Shown here piece after piece: positions 727-25,651 of a DNA stretch of 25,651 nt. Source of the DNA: a virus (taxonomy: Duplodnaviria; Heunggongvirae; Uroviricota; Caudoviricetes); IMG/VR virus record IMGVR_UViG_2778261088_000004, positions 1-25,651 of that record; one strand, given 5' to 3'. The first letter of the stretch is position 1; the number at the start of each line of letters is the position of its first letter. A program made the translations under genes and the position numbers. The notes beneath the pieces are model-generated. The model worked only from the letters and a program-made list of their open reading frames with translations. It made no database searches and was not told the origin of the DNA.

Positions 727-1989
727 ATGAGCACTTCAGCACAAAACCAATCAATCGAAAATGTATCTATCCCTGATGTCCTGAATGCCGGTATCCCGGC
801 CATTATCCAGAACATCCGGGCCGCGCAACGCCGCGTTAGTTGTGATGACCTCACAGCACGTTTTTTTGATAATGCGGTTCAGTCAGCGGAGATGCTTCAC
901 GCACAGCTTATTGATGTTTATAACGCAGAAGCTGATAGCCATAACTCCCTGGTAGATGCAGCTGAAAATATGCAGTTGGATCTCGGTCTGAAGGGTAAAG
1001 AAATTGAAGAGCTTCAGCTGCAAATTGAACATTTGAAACGCCAGCAACAGGACGCGATCGACGATGCGACGCATGACGCCAACCAGCGTGCTGATAATGC
1101 CGAACGTATAAGCATTGAGCTGGAAACAAAACTCAATGAAATGACCGCGATGGTTGAACTGCGGAACTCACAGATTTCAACGCTAAAATCTCAATATAAA
1201 GAGATCATGAAACTTGATCCTTTTAACCTTGAGAAACGCTATAACAAAGCTAAAAGCGAGCGACAGGAACTGCGTAAGCAGGTCGCCGACCTTAACCAAC
1301 AGCTCAAAAAAACTATTAAAGATGCAAGCGAAGCGCGCGTGGCATTTGCTAATAAAAAAGCAGAGGTTACCGCGCTGGTTAATGAGAATGCCAAATTTGC
1401 GACGCTCAAGAAGGAAATGTATGGCATTACTGAGCGCCGTTTCCCTGCAAGCAAACTTCATCCGACGTTAGGGCAAATCTCCTTCTTCCCGCGCCTCCTG
1501 GCTTATGGGATCTCATCGCCTAAAGAGTTCAATAACGAGCGTCCTTATATCGTTTCTAAGCTGGACTTTGCTTATCAGTTCTGCTGCGACATGGGCTATG
1601 CCATTGATATCCGGATCAACGAATGGTTGATGCCAAACTTCCAGCCGTTGGCCATTTTCCGCGAGTTCCAGCCGGAAGGTTGGGTAGAGTTCTTCCATGA
1701 ATTGATCTGTAAAGAGATGGAAAGCCGCCGCCCGGAACTGGTCCGTCGAGTTGAGTGGGCGCAAGAGGTTATGTTGGCAGAGGCAGAGCTGCCGTTCGAA
1801 CCGGAATTTATTGATGATCTGGCAGCTAAAGGGCTGCATACCCTGTTTGATGTGGTTACCCGCCGTCATGAGCAGTTGGTTGTCGAATTGGGTTTAGAGG
1901 AAACAGCGGCAAGAAGACTTCTCGATGTTTGCTATGCACGTAGCGATGCATGGGAAAAAGAGAACGGCGGCACTATTTACGTTCGCTGA
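727..1989 (+). CDS. Hypothetical protein (420 aa), coiled-coil N-terminal half and globular C-terminal half
   Basis: Long ORF; heptad-like E/K/Q/L-rich sequence from roughly residue 60 to 230; followed by a strong intrinsic terminator; C1 operator pair upstream. Confidence 0.7.
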   Translation: MSTSAQNQSIENVSIPDVLNAGIPAIIQNIRAAQRRVSCDDLTARFFDNAVQSAEMLHAQLIDVYNAEADSHNSLVDAAENMQLDLGLKGKEIEELQLQIEHLKRQQQDAIDDATHDANQRADNAERISIELETKLNEMTAMVELRNSQISTLKSQYKEIMKLDPFNLEKRYNKAKSERQELRKQVADLNQQLKKTIKDASEARVAFANKKAEVTALVNENAKFATLKKEMYGITERRFPASKLHPTLGQISFFPRLLAYGISSPKEFNNERPYIVSKLDFAYQFCCDMGYAIDIRINEWLMPNFQPLAIFREFQPEGWVEFFHELICKEMESRRPELVRRVEWAQEVMLAEAELPFEPEFIDDLAAKGLHTLFDVVTRRHEQLVVELGLEETAARRLLDVCYARSDAWEKENGGTIYVR

Positions 1990-9985: not shown

Positions 9986-10641
9986 CTACTCTAACGACAG
10001 CATACTTACAGCAATTGGTATTTTTTGCAGGCGAGGCTACTTGTCATCCTGACGCAAACTATTTATTGGAATTTGAGAGGTTAGCGTCACCCGGTATCGT
10101 TCTGGAACTGGCCCAACAGGTGCTGGCCTTGAGACAAAAAGAGCAACATGAAAGTAATACGTGTAGATTGAATTTTGAGCAGTGGCTGGAACAGCAACGC
10201 GGAAAAATCGATGTGGACTGTGGTTGTGTGTCCACTGAAACATTCATGCACTGGCTGCGGGTAGCTTACGAGGCTGGCAACTATCCGGATATTCCGGATA
10301 GTTCGGTGCCAGCGCCAGGAAAGGGCGTCACCGGTGAACGTATCCGCATTAAGCCGCATGTTTATCGCGAACTGGTTAACCGTCTCCACGATACAGCGAT
10401 CAAGTGTGCTGGCACCCAGCAATTACGAGAAAGAATTAGCCGTGTTTTGGGCGACGTTATTACGCCATATCATCATAAACAAGCCGAGAAAAGCGGTCTG
10501 GAAAGGTGTCATCTTGAGGCAGCATTAAACATTAAGCCGGGGCATACGCTTGGCATTATTGATGCACTGTTGGTTCATAAGATGGCCAGGGCTTTATTGT
10601 CGTTGGTGGACGCTGGTGATACAAGCGAGGGTGAAGTATGA
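9967..10641 (+). CDS. Hypothetical protein (224 aa; start may instead be ATG 9982)
   Basis: ORF track; the alternative ATG at 9982 overlaps the upstream stop (ATGA). Confidence 0.5.
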   Translation: MAQKEMTTLTTAYLQQLVFFAGEATCHPDANYLLEFERLASPGIVLELAQQVLALRQKEQHESNTCRLNFEQWLEQQRGKIDVDCGCVSTETFMHWLRVAYEAGNYPDIPDSSVPAPGKGVTGERIRIKPHVYRELVNRLHDTAIKCAGTQQLRERISRVLGDVITPYHHKQAEKSGLERCHLEAALNIKPGHTLGIIDALLVHKMARALLSLVDAGDTSEGEV

Positions 10642-11000
10642 GAGTTGCAGATCACATCAAACACCTTGAAAGAATTATCGAAAACGGTGAACTCTTAAGA
10701 GATCAGATGAGACGCACGGCAGAAGCCAGGGAGGCGATAATCCACAGTCAGGCTGGTAAATTAAAGCAATTGTCAGAGATTAACACGCTATACAAGAACA
10801 GACGTAACCGGGCGGTGATGCGGCTTCAGAAAGCACGTAATGAAATTAAATTGGTGGAGGCAAAACTGAAAAAACAGATCCAGCGTTACGATCAGCAAGA
10901 TGCTTTTTATGCCGCCATCAAGGCGGCTGCTAATGAAATAGGCATCTGGAAGTTGCTGGTGGAGAAAGCAAAGACGAAGTTAAATGCCAACGAAAGCTGA
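10638..11000 (+). CDS. Hypothetical coiled-coil protein (120 aa); last gene of the rightward operon
   Basis: ATGA overlap with the upstream gene; K/E/R-rich helical sequence. Confidence 0.5.
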   Translation: MRVADHIKHLERIIENGELLRDQMRRTAEAREAIIHSQAGKLKQLSEINTLYKNRRNRAVMRLQKARNEIKLVEAKLKKQIQRYDQQDAFYAAIKAAANEIGIWKLLVEKAKTKLNANES

Positions 11001-11075
11001 ACTACAGGTGCCCACCAGCACATACAGAAAATGATTGTTTCCACATCAAGGAGATTTTAATGTTTCACTGAAACA

Positions 11076-11213
11076 TTAAGTAAGCCAGTGCATAATTCCA
11101 TTTTTTACTGACCTTAAAAGCAAAATCAAAACGATGATGAGGATAATAGCCAGAATCTGGCTAATAATAGGCGCATCTAAAAATGCACTCAGGAACTGAA
11201 AAAAAGCGTTCAT
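11076..11213 (-). CDS. Candidate 45-aa hydrophobic peptide (MNAFFQFLSAFLDAPIISQILAIILIIVLILLLRSVKNGIMHWLT)
   Basis: Found by hand translation of the minus strand; AAGGAA lies 8 nt upstream of the ATG; single transmembrane helix; sits in an otherwise gene-poor gap. Confidence 0.3.
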   Translation of the reverse strand: MNAFFQFLSAFLDAPIISQILAIILIIVLILLLRSVKNGIMHWLT

Positions 11214-12075
11214 TCAGGTGGTTCCTTGTCAAATGTAAAGGTGCACTTGCTCACGTTGACGTAGAAACCCAACCCCTATATAGTTGGATTCGGTGAATGA
11301 AAGTCGTTAACGTGAGCTTACGGCACATGTTTTCGGAAAAACATCAGGGAACGGCTAATTCCTTGATGCGGGTGGGGTCTGTAATGCAGACCCTATCTAT
11401 TAACGTCATGATTGCATCTCAAATTTTCTCCTTATCTTCAATTAATCTACATTCATTTCATCTGTTAGCCACCACAATATGTAGAAAATGGCCCTCTTGC
11501 AAGTGCATAACTTTGTGGATAACTCAGGAAGGAAAAAGTGGCTTTCGCGCACCTTCGGTCAGACAAGGTGTCCGGGAAAGTCAACGCAAAGAAAAAAATT
11601 GTTAAAAATAACGTTTGTTGGAATTGTATATTTTTATCCCCTTCAATGGTTAGCATTCTATTAACATCTTTTTTTAGAGACAGAAAAACATATCGTAACA
11701 ACATATATACAGTGTTAAGAGGCGAGTATTATCCTGCGGTGGGAATTCTGGGCGCTGTTAGATTCGACTTTCTCAGCAGGATTACATCGTCAACTTGCGA
11801 CGTTGCCGTATGACTTTCGTGTAATAGGTGACAATGATGCGGCTAGTGAGTTACTTGTGAAGTTTTTCGGAAAAGGTTTTGTGGCCTCGGATCTTGATGA
11901 GCTACAGCAACATGAAGTGTCTAATTTGATTTTTAGCCATAGCCAATAAGCCTCCCTCCTCCATCAAGGCCACAATTTGTGACCTTAAACAATTTGTTTT
12001 CTGCTTTTTCTTATTTGAGAAAATAACGTTGTTGACAGCTAATAGGCTCGTTGTTGTTATACATGCCTGTATAGA

Positions 12076-12432
12076 TTATGACCGTAAATTATTAGCGGAT
12101 TTTAAGCCATATTCACCGTTGTAGAAATTACTCATGTTCCATTCATTAGGAAGTTCTTTTCTGTCCAATGTATAGTGGCGCACGATATAACGATCTTCAT
12201 CTTCTTCGATGGACAGGCGGACATAGCCAATGTGAATCACCGATACGGGCGGTGTTCGTATTGCATAGATGTCGCGGAGATATACCGGCAGCTCGACAAA
12301 TGCATCAGGTGCATCTGTGATGCTCGTTTTTTCACAGTATTCATATAACGCATCGTTGATATTGTTAAGAGATTCATGATCGTATATTTCCAGGTAATTA
12401 CCGCGATCGCGATGGTACTCGATTTTAGCCAT
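12076..12432 (-). CDS. Hypothetical protein (118 aa), distal gene of a divergent two-gene operon
   Basis: ATG directly abuts the stop of the upstream gene (TGAATG), with AGGGG upstream; acidic; no family recognised. Confidence 0.6.
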   Translation of the reverse strand: MAKIEYHRDRGNYLEIYDHESLNNINDALYEYCEKTSITDAPDAFVELPVYLRDIYAIRTPPVSVIHIGYVRLSIEEDEDRYIVRHYTLDRKELPNEWNMSNFYNGEYGLKSANNLRS

Positions 12433-13017
12433 TCAAAATCCCCTGTTATCGTTTTGCATTTCTCTAATCCGGTTCAGAACTACTTCATGCTGGACTTGGA
12501 TAGCGGCTTTTTCGTTTTCAAGCCGGGCAATAGACATCTCTAATTCTTTGCTGTACCAGGCGAGCTGGGCCAGGTTCATCCGGTTGTGGTCGAGAGTTGG
12601 AGACACTTCGACGCGATCCCTTTCTTCCTGCTTTAATGAGAAGAGATTTATCTCATCCCTTGAGGAAAATTCAGCAACAATTTCTTGTTGATGATCCGGT
12701 CGCTGCGGCATCCTCGCCAGTATAAATGGCGGTTCTTTTGAAAACATGAATGTCGGTTCAGACCGTGTTTTTACCCAGCTTGCCTGCTGTCTTTCGGCAA
12801 GTTCACAGGCTTCATCATAGTTATCTGCCAAACAAAGCACGGATGGACGGTCCCACGCCCCACCATTCAGACAATAAACTACAATTTTCCCGTCAGGTTG
12901 TGTAACCCCATATGGATGGTCCCACCAGGCGTCCAGCTGAGCTTTAGAGCGTTTCTCGTTAGGAGTGCAGTCAAAATTTTTGGGCAATACAGGATCGAGA
13001 GGAATGCGGGCAGGCAT
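12433..13017 (-). CDS. Hypothetical protein (194 aa), proximal gene of a divergent two-gene operon
   Basis: ATG at 13017 with AAGGA 8 nt upstream; C-terminal coiled-coil-like segment; shares its upstream intergenic region with humD. Confidence 0.6.
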   Translation of the reverse strand: MPARIPLDPVLPKNFDCTPNEKRSKAQLDAWWDHPYGVTQPDGKIVVYCLNGGAWDRPSVLCLADNYDEACELAERQQASWVKTRSEPTFMFSKEPPFILARMPQRPDHQQEIVAEFSSRDEINLFSLKQEERDRVEVSPTLDHNRMNLAQLAWYSKELEMSIARLENEKAAIQVQHEVVLNRIREMQNDNRGF

Positions 13018-13191: not shown

Positions 13192-13581
13192 ATGGGCTTC
13201 CCTTCTCCTGCGGCGGATTATGTTGAAAGCCGAATTTCTCTTGATCAGCAACTAATCAGGCATCCATCAGCAACCTACTTCATGCGGGCAGCTGATAGCC
13301 ATCACCGTGAGGGAATATTGCAGGGTGCTTTGCTGGTGGTTGATTCCTCGCTTACTCCGGTTGATGGTTCTCTGCTTGTGTGCGCTATGGAGGGTGAATA
13401 TCGCATAAAGAGATACAGGAAGTATCCGCGCCAGCACCTGGAGGATTTAAGCACCGGGAAGAAAGAGGCGTTACCAGTAGATGACGATGGATGCACGGGC
13501 AGTAATGCTGTTTTTGGTGTGATCACTCATGTCATCAATGATGCCCGAAGTGGGGAGTTTGATGATTGTCCGGTTATTTAA
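13192..13581 (+). CDS. humD: HumD, UmuD'-like SOS mutagenesis protein homolog (129 aa)
   Basis: GFPSPAADYVE...HPSATYF...FGVITHV aligns with the E. coli UmuD C-terminal domain; LexA box upstream; position before phd-doc as in P1. Confidence 0.85.
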   Translation: MGFPSPAADYVESRISLDQQLIRHPSATYFMRAADSHHREGILQGALLVVDSSLTPVDGSLLVCAMEGEYRIKRYRKYPRQHLEDLSTGKKEALPVDDDGCTGSNAVFGVITHVINDARSGEFDDCPVI

Positions 13582-25289: not shown

Positions 25290-25651
25290 TGGAGGTTCCT
25301 TCAGTTTTCTGATGAAGCGCGGAGGTGGCTCAACCTGCGAAAAGAAACGAGTTGCTACGTAAGTCCGAGAACATGCTTTCCATGGTCTTGCACCGGTTGT
25401 GTTCCGGTCTATCTCTCATTTTAAGCGGCTTTTTTCTCAAATGCCACCGGCGATTTCCAGCCGAGTGCTGATGAATCCCCTAATGATTTTTATCAAAATC
25501 ATTAAGTTAAGGTAGATACACATCTTGTCATATGATCAAATGGTTTCGCCAAAAATCAATAATCAGACAACAAAATGTGCGAACTCGATATTTTACACGA
25601 CTCTCTTTACCAATTCTGCCCCGAATTACACTTAAAACGACTCAACAGCTT

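What the first reader, a model, noticed from the sequence alone, without database searches (positions are those of the whole stretch)
11001..12075. About 1.1 kb gene-poor gap between two convergent operons
No convincing protein-coding ORF spans 11001-12075. The track ORFs here (11297-11605, 11465-11704, 11538-11813) have no ribosome-binding sites and junk-like composition. The region is AT-rich in places (11600-11720) and contains a short hairpin (GGGTCTG / loop TAATG / CAGACCC around 11374-11392). In a compact phage genome, a gap this large usually holds an RNA gene, a replication or partition site, or a recent deletion scar.
Basis: seen in the sequence. Interest (0 to 1): 0.5.

Follow-up and report, generated by a model that had tools for sequence, protein, structure and literature searches.

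The report
Small-protein module plus gene remnants
The "empty" 1.1 kb of this P1/P7-type phage-plasmid has two parts: a conserved unit, barely annotated, in which a copied host nrdA promoter points at a structured leader and a 45-residue membrane peptide, and the decayed leftovers of two genes, so it is mostly ordinary but gives one testable lead.

Summary
The gap is real. PGAP annotates nothing between the pmgV homologue (ends 11000, +) and upf93.6 (ends 12076, -). It is the known upfM-upfO / upf91.x interval of phages P1 and P7, part of "variable region 8" of P1-like phage-plasmids. It is not empty.

Left half (11001-~11552): a module conserved in three plasmid lineages.
- A 95% copy of the E. 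coli nrdA promoter (DnaA box, -35, -10) faces leftward.
- Next comes a ~250-nt leader, 92% conserved between lineages. The flanking genes hot and humD are 86-87% conserved.
- Then a 45-aa hydrophobic ORF (11213->11076, Shine-Dalgarno AAGGA), the only long ORF (45 aa) kept open in all lineages; two short ORFs inside the conserved leader also stay open.
- A strong promoter-like site on the opposite strand lies inside the leader.

I read this as a small membrane-protein gene, possibly type I toxin-antitoxin-like. Expression and toxicity are untested.

Right half (11553-12075): scars.
- More nrdA-upstream-like DNA.
- A humD control region with half its LexA box deleted.
- The last 66 codons of a Toprim gene with its weak terminator.

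No tRNA, Rfam family, iterons or origin features were found. Interest is modest.

The parts
11057..11079 (.). Perfect 11/11 inverted repeat (TTAATGTTTCA/TGAAACATTAA) overlapping the stop codon of the small ORF. It is a candidate 3' stem-loop of the leftward transcript. It has no U-tract, so it is not a canonical terminator.
   Evidence: repeat I3. A stem is kept in the divergent lineage L007 with one G-C to G-U change and one U-A to C-G change (my reading of the alignment).
11076..11213 (-). 45-aa hydrophobic ORF, MNAFFQFLSAFLDAPIISQILAIILIIVLILLLRSVKNGIMHWLT. It has one predicted transmembrane segment and a polar C-terminal tail. I propose it as the product of the module.
   Evidence: The ORF is listed. 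It has the same start, stop and length in the P1-type and L007-type lineages (58% amino-acid identity). dN/dS is 0.41. Random substitution keeps an open hydrophobic ORF in 1.8% of trials. It is full length in 216/216 plasmid hits. PGAP annotates it as WP_000123562.1 in P1-type plasmids. It has no Pfam, NCBIfam or PADLOC family.
11223..11227 (-). Shine-Dalgarno AAGGA, 9 nt upstream of the ATG at 11213. It is GAGGA in lineage L007.
11250..11436 (.). Highly conserved structured block. On the minus strand it is the predicted 5' leader of the small-ORF mRNA. On the plus strand it is the candidate antisense RNA. It contains the long hairpin with arms 11249-11261 and 11305-11317, a hairpin at 11342-11368 and a hairpin at 11370-11398.
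   Evidence: It is 92% identical between the window and L007, against 76% for the ORF and 86-87% for hot and humD. The plus-strand fold has z = -5.29 and the minus-strand transcript z = -3.96. Three of the substitutions fall in the 7-nt loop of the 11342-11368 hairpin while its stem is kept.
11256..11284 (+). Sigma-70 promoter-like site TTGACG-17-TATAGT (P1's predicted 'PupfN'), lying inside the leader. The predicted start is about 11291. It is the candidate promoter of a cis-antisense RNA.
   Evidence: 10 of 12 matches. It is invariant in all three lineages. No transcript data are available.
11375..11393 (.). On the plus strand it can extend to 13 pairs using G-U pairs.
   Evidence: There is a compensatory U-A to C-G change in lineage L007.
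11344..11433 (-). Strong Shine-Dalgarno AAGGAG (11433-11428), followed by a start codon at 11417 and a 21-codon ORF (11409->11344) inside the leader. It is a possible leader ORF or ribosome-loading site. Its amino-acid changes track the RNA-stem changes, so it is probably not a protein gene.
11474..11600 (-). Copy of the E. coli nrdA promoter region reading leftward: DnaA box TTATCCACA at 11522-11514, -35 TTGCAA at 11502-11497, -10 TATTGT at 11479-11474. The predicted start is about 11466. Homology to E. coli ends just after the -10.
   Evidence: Positions 11484-11600 are 95% identical to the ypaB/nrdA upstream DNA in all 5426 E. coli genomes. M95666 annotates an 'nrdA-like promoter' and a DnaA box on this strand. 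The DnaA box is confirmed.
11601..11748 (+). Decayed humD control region of foreign type. It has an AT-rich upstream part and a LexA box that has lost 11 bp (junction 11704/11705; right half-site CAGT at 11710-11713). It also has an SD remnant AAGAGG (11718-11723) and a stub of the first ~10 humD codons.
   Evidence: It is about 79% identical to the DNA directly upstream of humD in rep_cluster_488 plasmids. The alignment shows the deletion and the stub.
11749..11949 (+). 3' fragment (last 66 codons, residues 109-174) of a 174-aa Toprim/primase-like gene. It is a pseudogene remnant. P7's IS903 is inserted here, at about 11821/11822.
   Evidence: 88% amino-acid identity, E = 4e-40. The intact gene occurs in PhiR41_1 and pKOr024_2. 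PHROG assigns 'DNA primase'.
11950..12030 (+). Downstream tail of the Toprim gene. It has a weakened terminator-like hairpin, GGCCAC-aattt-GTGACC (11968-11984), followed by a U-rich run. This 65-bp tail is shared with many ~110-kb plasmids of Klebsiella, Enterobacter and Salmonella.
   Evidence: (the stem is perfect in PhiR41_1).

Best explanation
The gap is a mosaic with two halves.

Left half (11001-~11552). I read this as one leftward transcription unit that standard annotation misses or puts on the wrong strand.
- A captured copy of the host nrdA promoter starts a transcript at about 11466. In E. coli this promoter is regulated by DnaA and is induced by replication stress independently of LexA.
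- The transcript runs through a ~250-nt highly conserved, hairpin-rich leader.
- It then reaches a 45-residue hydrophobic peptide gene (11213->11076) and a stem-loop at 11079-11057.
- A strong promoter-like site on the opposite strand (11256-11284) would produce an RNA fully complementary to the leader.
- That layout matches type I toxin-antitoxin loci and other small membrane-protein genes controlled by antisense RNA.
- Together with the LexA-controlled lxr and humD next door, the module would give the prophage a second, LexA-independent output tied to replication status.

Right half (11553-12075). This is non-functional debris from recombination in a known variable region. It holds a foreign humD control region with a broken LexA box, fused to the 3' end and terminator of a Toprim gene.

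Shown here: the homologies, the conservation pattern, the retention of the ORF, and the remnants.
Inferred only: the transcription start sites, translation of the peptide, existence of the antisense RNA, and any toxic or regulatory activity.
For: Identity of the region:
- It is the P1/P7 pmgV-lxr interval.
- PGAP leaves it empty.

Promoter:
- 117 bp are 95% identical to the E. coli nrdA upstream DNA, including the DnaA box and the -35. Homology ends after the -10, and the copy faces left.
- GenBank record M95666 of P1 annotates it as an 'nrdA-like promoter'.
- The regulation of nrdAB by DnaA, and its LexA-independent induction by damage, come from PMC8203912 and PMC11228462.

Module conservation:
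- It is present in three lineages and in 216 of 5426 complete E. coli genomes, with 222 of 223 copies on plasmids.

Small ORF:
- Only minus-strand ORFs are kept in all lineages. P1's upfM and upfN are not.
- The ORF keeps the same length, with a Shine-Dalgarno sequence. dN/dS is 0.41, and the simulation gives p of about 0.02 for keeping an open hydrophobic frame.
- It is full length in 216 of 216 tblastn hits, and PGAP calls it in P1-type plasmids.

Leader:
- It is 92% identical between lineages, against 76% for the ORF and 86-87% for hot and humD.
- Fold z-scores are -5.3 and -4.0.
- There is one compensatory pair, and substitutions concentrate in loops.
- The opposite-strand promoter matches 10 of 12 positions and is invariant.

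Remnants.

Variable region 8: PMC9603915.
Against: - No transcript, protein or phenotype data exist for this unit. I found none in the literature searches.
- Only three lineages exist, so covariation is weak: 1 compensatory pair out of 51, and a covariation term of about 0. Structure cannot be assigned to one strand.
- The peptide shows no more amino-acid conservation than random substitution would leave (19 observed against 19.6 expected changes). Differences by codon position are flat, at 12/8/13.
- No canonical terminator exists on either strand.
- The nrdA-like promoter scores only 8 of 12 by my count and fell below the scan's threshold.
- SD-occluding structures are not consistent between lineages.
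- There is no similarity to any known toxin, Rfam or defence family, and no relatives beyond these plasmids in 1.84 billion representative proteins.
- Frameshifted copies occur.
- P1 upfN and upfO knock-downs have no lytic phenotype (PMC10695390).
Confidence: 0.55

Rival explanations
1. The conserved left block is a plus-strand element. The TTGACG-17-TATAGT promoter (P1's 'PupfN') starts a non-coding leader or small RNA that, in P1 and in the pIncFIB-type plasmids, runs on into hot (and humD). The hairpins act as stabilisers or attenuators. The 45-codon minus-strand ORF is incidental.
For: - The promoter matches 10 of 12 positions and is invariant.
- The plus-strand fold has z = -5.3. Two stems use G-U pairs that would be A-C mismatches on the other strand.
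- hot lies downstream on the plus strand in both P1 and L007.
- The peptide's amino-acid conservation is weak.
Against: - In the window lineage hot is gone, yet the block is still intact.
- The DNA between the block and hot is poorly conserved (18 of 30 identical per 30-nt window).
- One stem change in L007 favours the minus strand: U-G there, C-A on the plus strand.
- This reading does not explain the precise fusion of a leftward nrdA promoter to the block, or the retention of an open hydrophobic frame with a Shine-Dalgarno sequence.
- There is no plus-strand terminator.
Confidence: 0.2
2. The whole interval is functionless filler in a recombination hot spot. The left block looks conserved only because it was exchanged recently between lineages, and the promoter copy is maintained by gene conversion with the host chromosome.
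For: - This is variable region 8 of P1-like phage-plasmids (PMC9603915).
- The right half is demonstrably debris.
- IS903, and in other plasmids IS5-like and IS3-family elements, sit in or near the interval.
- Some P1-like plasmids lack the module altogether.
- The P1 genes in this interval are non-essential.
- Only three lineages exist.
Against: - Within one contiguous homologous stretch, identity falls to 76% in the ORF and about 60-70% at 11436-11480, but stays at 92% in the block.
- Substitutions inside the block avoid or compensate stems.
- The ORF stays open and hydrophobic (p of about 0.02) and is full length in 216 of 216 copies.
Confidence: 0.17
3. The interval is a DNA-level site: a replication origin, a partition or incompatibility site, or a DnaA-titrating locus.
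For: - There is a perfect DnaA box at 11514-11522.
- AT-rich DNA lies at 11600-11720.
- Several inverted repeats are present.
Against: - There is only one DnaA box. The whole window has three matches against 2.35 expected by chance.
- There are no iterons or direct-repeat arrays, and no skew inflection.
- The DnaA box and the AT-rich DNA are explained by homology to the nrdA and humD promoter regions.
- From my own knowledge of P1, its known origins and parS lie elsewhere.
Confidence: 0.04

Closest known systems
Phage P1 upfM-upfN-upfO interval with the 'nrdA-like promoter / DnaA box' (NC_005856 85.9-86.5 kb; M95666), and phage P7 upf91.3-upf91.7 (AF503408)
   Same: This is the same locus. Window 10601-11552 is 96.5% identical to P1. 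The whole interval is 99.6% identical to P7, apart from P7's IS903 insertion.
   Different: The published annotations place small ORFs on the plus strand, and those ORFs are not conserved in the third lineage. They do not annotate the minus-strand 45-aa ORF. Beyond 11552, P1 has LPhot and hot where the window has humD and Toprim remnants followed by upf93.6.
Stress-induced type I toxin-antitoxin loci of E. coli (tisB/istR-1, dinQ/agrB, ldr/rdl) and the plasmid hok/sok system
   Same: Shared features are a hydrophobic single-helix peptide shorter than 60 aa, a long structured 5' leader, and a promoter-like site for an RNA antisense to the leader. The locus also sits on a mobile element next to DNA-damage genes. 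The architecture of those systems is from my own knowledge; the features in this window are.
   Different: There is no sequence or covariance-model similarity to any of them. The promoter is nrdA-type, with a DnaA box and no LexA box. The candidate antisense RNA has no canonical terminator. Neither toxicity nor the antisense RNA has been demonstrated.
E. coli nrdAB promoter region (ypaB-nrdA intergenic DNA)
   Same: The window is 95% identical over 117 bp, including the DnaA box TTATCCACA and the -35 TTGCAA, in the same orientation relative to the downstream transcript.
   Different: Homology stops at the -10. The transcribed part is phage-specific, and the E. coli DNA downstream of the start is absent. 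A sister plasmid type (CP027358) couples the same promoter copy to a different short unit that ends in a canonical terminator.
Toprim-domain (primase-like) gene of P1-like and PhiR41_1-type phage-plasmids (WP_000159954.1, XSB42472.1)
   Same: Window 11749-11949 encodes residues 109-174 at 88% identity, followed by the same downstream tail.
   Different: The first 108 codons, the start codon and the ribosome-binding site are missing, so only a fragment remains.

Membership tests
Type I toxin-antitoxin system | Small (<60 aa) hydrophobic peptide with a predicted transmembrane helix | tested here: met
   The ORF is 45 aa. Kyte-Doolittle mean is 3.1 over residues 15-33 in the window and 2.6 in lineage L007. 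The ORF and its Shine-Dalgarno sequence are conserved.
Type I toxin-antitoxin system | Antisense RNA antitoxin that pairs with the toxin mRNA | tested here: inconclusive
   An invariant 10/12 promoter match lies on the opposite strand inside the leader, and the predicted RNA folds well (z = -5.3). There is no canonical terminator and no expression data.
Type I toxin-antitoxin system | Peptide is toxic when expressed and is neutralised by the RNA | not testable with these tools
   This needs over-expression and membrane-potential assays.
Hok/Sok, Ldr/Rdl, TisB/IstR, ShoB, Ibs/Sib, Zor/Orz, DinQ/AgrB (known enterobacterial type I families) | Sequence or covariance-model match to the family | tested here: not met
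   Pfam and NCBIfam give no significant hit. Rfam gives none at gathering score or at E <= 10, apart from chance hits. phmmer against 1.84 billion proteins finds only copies of the ORF itself.
Terminator-defined small RNA gene | Promoter followed by a GC-rich hairpin and a U-tract | tested here: not met
   The only terminator-like site in 10900-12200 lies inside the ORF, on the minus strand. The 11375-11393 hairpin is followed by AUCUAUUAA.
tRNA / tmRNA / any Rfam family | ARAGORN or Infernal match | tested here: not met
   There are no tRNAs in the window. The only Rfam match in the window is RNA-OUT at 25513-25582, outside the finding.
Plasmid/phage replication origin or partition site | Iterons or arrays of direct repeats, clustered DnaA boxes, and a skew change | tested here: not met
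   Only two-copy short repeats are present. There is one DnaA box. Cumulative skew is flat.
E. coli nrdA-type promoter | Sequence identity across the DnaA box, -35 and -10, in the same orientation towards a downstream transcript | tested here: met
   The window is 95% identical over 117 bp. Promoter activity and DnaA control were not tested.
Toprim/primase-like protein gene | Complete ORF with the N-terminal part and a start codon | tested here: not met
   Only residues 109-174 are present, and a stop codon lies upstream in frame. It is filed as a pseudogene fragment.
LexA-regulated humD promoter | Intact 20-bp LexA box (CTGT-N8-ACAG) followed by humD | tested here: not met
   An 11-bp deletion removes the left half-site, and humD is cut after about 10 codons. 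The functional copy is at 13192-13581.

The most novel reading that the evidence does not exclude
P1-family phage-plasmids carry an unrecognised, lineage-restricted type I toxin-antitoxin-like switch. A host-derived nrdA promoter, which senses DnaA and replication status, drives a structured mRNA for a 45-aa membrane peptide, and a cis-antisense RNA made from inside the leader holds it in check. This would give the prophage a LexA-independent replication-stress or plasmid-loss response alongside Phd/Doc, humD and lxr.
Probability: 0.25. Interest if true: 0.6.

Novelty: new member of a known kind. Interest (0 to 1): 0.38.

Why it matters
P1 is one of the best-studied phages, and P1-like phage-plasmids are common carriers of resistance genes.

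If the reading holds, three of P1's annotated "upf" genes are artefacts on the wrong strand. The real content would be a small membrane-peptide gene wired to a stolen host promoter that reports replication status. That would add a second addiction or stress module next to phd/doc. It would also be a clear case of a phage copying a host regulatory region rather than a host gene.

The right half matters only for annotation. It should be marked as pseudogene and remnant DNA, not as ORFs.

If the module turns out to be inert, the finding is simply a variable-region scar.

Tried and rejected
- tRNA scan and Rfam, at gathering score and at E <= 10: nothing relevant. The BsrG hit (E = 0.64) is chance.
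- Origin or iteron idea: rejected.
- Plus-strand ORFs upfM, upfN, upfO and upf91.x: rejected as genes because they are not open in lineage L007. Their PHROG hits reflect prior annotation only.
- Searches for more distant relatives, to gain covariation power, all returned the same three lineages or nothing:
  - an exact 23-mer in genome contigs (zero hits);
  - back-translated peptide patterns in genome contigs (none confirmed);
  - IMG/VR scans;
  - the 5.8-billion-protein word search;
  - phmmer on 1.84 billion representative proteins;
  - all complete E. coli genomes.
- PADLOC defence models: no hit.
- SD-sequestering hairpin as a conserved feature: not consistent between lineages, so dropped.
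- A 20-nt pairing between the 5' and 3' parts of the ORF (repeat I1): by my inspection it is not kept in L007, so dropped.
- 21-codon and 25-codon ORFs in the leader: open in all lineages. The amino-acid changes of the 21-codon ORF coincide with RNA-stem changes, so I do not propose either as a protein gene.
- NrdR-box matches near the -10: looked at by eye only, and not claimed.
- The Lobocka 2004 P1 genome paper could not be opened.
- P1 transcriptome papers do not discuss this interval.
Full report
**What the window is.**
- The window is a P1/P7-type phage-plasmid. Window 10600-12500 is 99.6-99.9% identical to phage P7, Salmonella phage SJ46 and about 90 E. coli and Salmonella plasmids. It matches phage P1 at 96.5%, but only up to 11552.
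- The finding lies between the pmgV homologue (10638-11000, +) and the convergent upf93.6 and lxr-like genes (12076-13017, -). These are followed by humD and phd/doc.
- PGAP annotates nothing in 11001-12075.
- The P7 record fills the interval with the mechanical ORFs upf91.3-91.7 and carries an IS903 insertion at about 11822. P1 annotates upfM, upfN and upfO, predicted promoters, and an 'nrdA-like promoter/DnaA box'.
- A survey of P1-like phage-plasmids lists pmgT-humD as one of eight highly variable regions (PMC9603915).
- So the gap is real. It is already on record as DNA of unknown function.

**Negative screens.**
- There are no tRNA or tmRNA genes.
- No Rfam family matches at gathering score or at E <= 10, apart from chance hits.
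- There are no iterons, only a single DnaA box, and no skew inflection.
- GC dips only mildly, to 0.36.
- The origin or partition reading is therefore not supported.

**Left half: a conserved module (11001-~11552).**
- The same ~530 bp occurs in three lineages: P7-type, P1-type, and ~108-kb rep_cluster_488 plasmids such as CP082122. In that last type it lies between hsdM and hot-humD, again unannotated.
- It is present in 216 of 5426 complete E. coli genomes, almost always on plasmids.
- No more distant relatives were found by any route.

**The captured promoter.**
- Window 11484-11600 is 95% identical to the DNA upstream of nrdA in every E. coli chromosome.
- In the window's orientation nrdA lies to the left on the minus strand, so the copied promoter reads leftward.
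- The alignment shows the DnaA box TTATCCACA (11522-11514), the -35 TTGCAA (11502-11497) and a -10 TATTGT (11479-11474). Homology to E. coli ends immediately after the -10.
- The predicted start is therefore near 11466. This is an inference.
- In E. coli, nrdAB is activated or repressed by DnaA according to its nucleotide state (PMC8203912). It is induced by replication inhibition independently of LexA (PMC11228462).

**What lies downstream of that promoter.**
- A six-frame comparison of the three lineages shows that upfM and upfN are not kept open in the divergent lineage. The ORFs open in all lineages are on the minus strand.
- The principal one is a 45-codon ORF (11213->11076) with AAGGA 9 nt upstream (GAGGA in the divergent lineage). 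It has identical start, stop and length, and a hydrophobic core.
- dN/dS is 0.41.
- With 33 random substitutions the frame stays open in 14% of trials. It stays open with a core at least as hydrophobic as observed in 1.8% of trials.
- The number of amino-acid changes is no lower than random, and codon-position bias is absent. Selection therefore seems to act on an open hydrophobic frame rather than on a particular sequence.
- All 216 tblastn hits in plasmids are full length.
- PGAP annotates the P1-type copy as a hypothetical protein.
- It matches no Pfam, NCBIfam or PADLOC family.
- A few frameshifted copies exist in metagenomic assemblies.

**The leader block (11250-11436).**
- Between the ORF and the promoter lies the best-conserved part of the module. 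It is 92% identical between the window and the divergent lineage. The ORF is 76% identical, hot 87% and humD 86%.
- It folds into a long hairpin (arms 11249-11261 and 11305-11317) and two further hairpins (11342-11368 and 11370-11398). Fold z is -5.3 on the plus strand and -4.0 for the whole minus-strand transcript.
Three substitutions fall in the loop of the neighbouring hairpin while its stem is kept.
- Formally, this is one compensatory pair out of 51 and a covariation term near zero. Some wobble pairs favour the plus strand and one favours the minus strand. Structure is therefore suggested but not assigned to a strand.
- Inside the block, the plus strand carries an invariant TTGACG-17-TATAGT (10 of 12 matches). 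An RNA started there would be fully complementary to the leader.
- No canonical terminator exists on either strand.
- The perfect inverted repeat at 11057-11079 overlaps the ORF's stop codon and is kept, with changes, in the divergent lineage. It lacks a U-tract.

**Interpretation of the left half.**
- The simplest account of three facts is a leftward small-protein transcription unit. The facts are a precise promoter capture, a constrained leader, and a retained hydrophobic ORF with a Shine-Dalgarno sequence.
- The added antisense promoter gives it the layout of a type I toxin-antitoxin locus. That comparison rests on my own knowledge of tisB/istR-1, dinQ/agrB, ldr/rdl and hok/sok.
- It is not a member of any known family.
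- Transcription, translation, toxicity and the antisense RNA are all untested. I found no literature on them.
- CRISPRi knock-down of P1 upfN and upfO has no lytic phenotype (PMC10695390). This fits an accessory function, but it equally fits no function at all.

**Right half: remnants (11553-12075).**
- Window 11495-11737 is about 79% identical to the DNA directly upstream of humD in another rep_cluster_488 plasmid type, CP027358.
- The alignment shows that plasmid's perfect LexA box. In the window an 11-bp deletion removes the left half (junction 11704/11705). Then come the SD remnant and a stub of the first humD codons. The window's functional humD, with its own LexA box, lies at 13192-13581.
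- From 11738 the DNA is 90% identical to the 3' end of a 174-aa Toprim/primase-like gene, which is intact in PhiR41_1 and pKOr024_2.
- Window 11749-11949 encodes residues 109-174 of that protein at 88% identity (E = 4e-40), with an in-frame stop upstream.
- The gene's downstream hairpin is weakened by a mismatch here. Its 65-bp tail is shared with many ~110-kb plasmids of other enterobacteria.
- P7's IS903 sits inside this fragment.
- This half is recombination debris.

**Verdict.**
- The locus is already known as DNA of unknown function in P1 and P7.
- The new element is the strand reassignment, together with the model of a promoter-leader-peptide unit with an antisense RNA. It is plausible and cheap to test, but it rests on three lineages and no expression data.
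- My confidence is about 0.9 for the mosaic and remnant description. It is about 0.6 that the 45-codon ORF is a real gene, and about 0.25-0.3 that the unit is a type I toxin-antitoxin-like system.

Noticed in passing
L116 (NZ_CP027358.1) about 1835-1960, minus strand: In a sister plasmid type, the same nrdA-like promoter copy (TTGCAC-17-TATCTT) lies back-to-back with the LexA box of humD. About 85 nt downstream it is followed by a canonical intrinsic terminator (AAAAAAGCCCAG...CTGGGCTTTTT). This looks like a small-RNA unit in the position where the window has the leader and peptide module.
   Followed up: partly
L116 about 1480-1790: An unannotated 800-bp gap contains repeated motifs: TAAGTATCTGGCGACT twice and AAATCGTGCCG two to three times. 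Their meaning is unknown.
   Followed up: no
window 25513-25582 (-): RNA-OUT, the antisense RNA of IS10/Tn10, scores 97 bits. An IS10 end therefore lies at the right edge of the window.
   Followed up: no
window 12076-13017 (-): upf93.6 (118 aa) replaces P1's hot at this position and is co-oriented with the lxr-like gene. Both have only PHROG families of unknown function and no Pfam, NCBIfam or PADLOC match.
   Followed up: partly
plasmids NZ_CP100671.1 and CP056895.1 (hits H37, H38): Other copies of this 1.9-kb region are split by IS5-like (ISKpn26) and IS3-family insertions. Together with P7's IS903, this suggests the interval tolerates insertions. The exact insertion points were not mapped.
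   Followed up: no
window 11171-11188 (-), inside the small ORF: The hairpin GTGCATT-TTTA-GATGCGC in codons 9-14 is kept in all lineages. It lies in the part of the ORF that is best conserved at the nucleotide level (27 of 30 identical). It was flagged as terminator-like, and it could be an RNA element within the coding region.
   Followed up: partly
window 11972-11980 and 11989-11997: ACAATTTGT occurs twice, 17 bp apart, in the tail of the Toprim remnant. The two copies are less alike in PhiR41_1.
   Followed up: no
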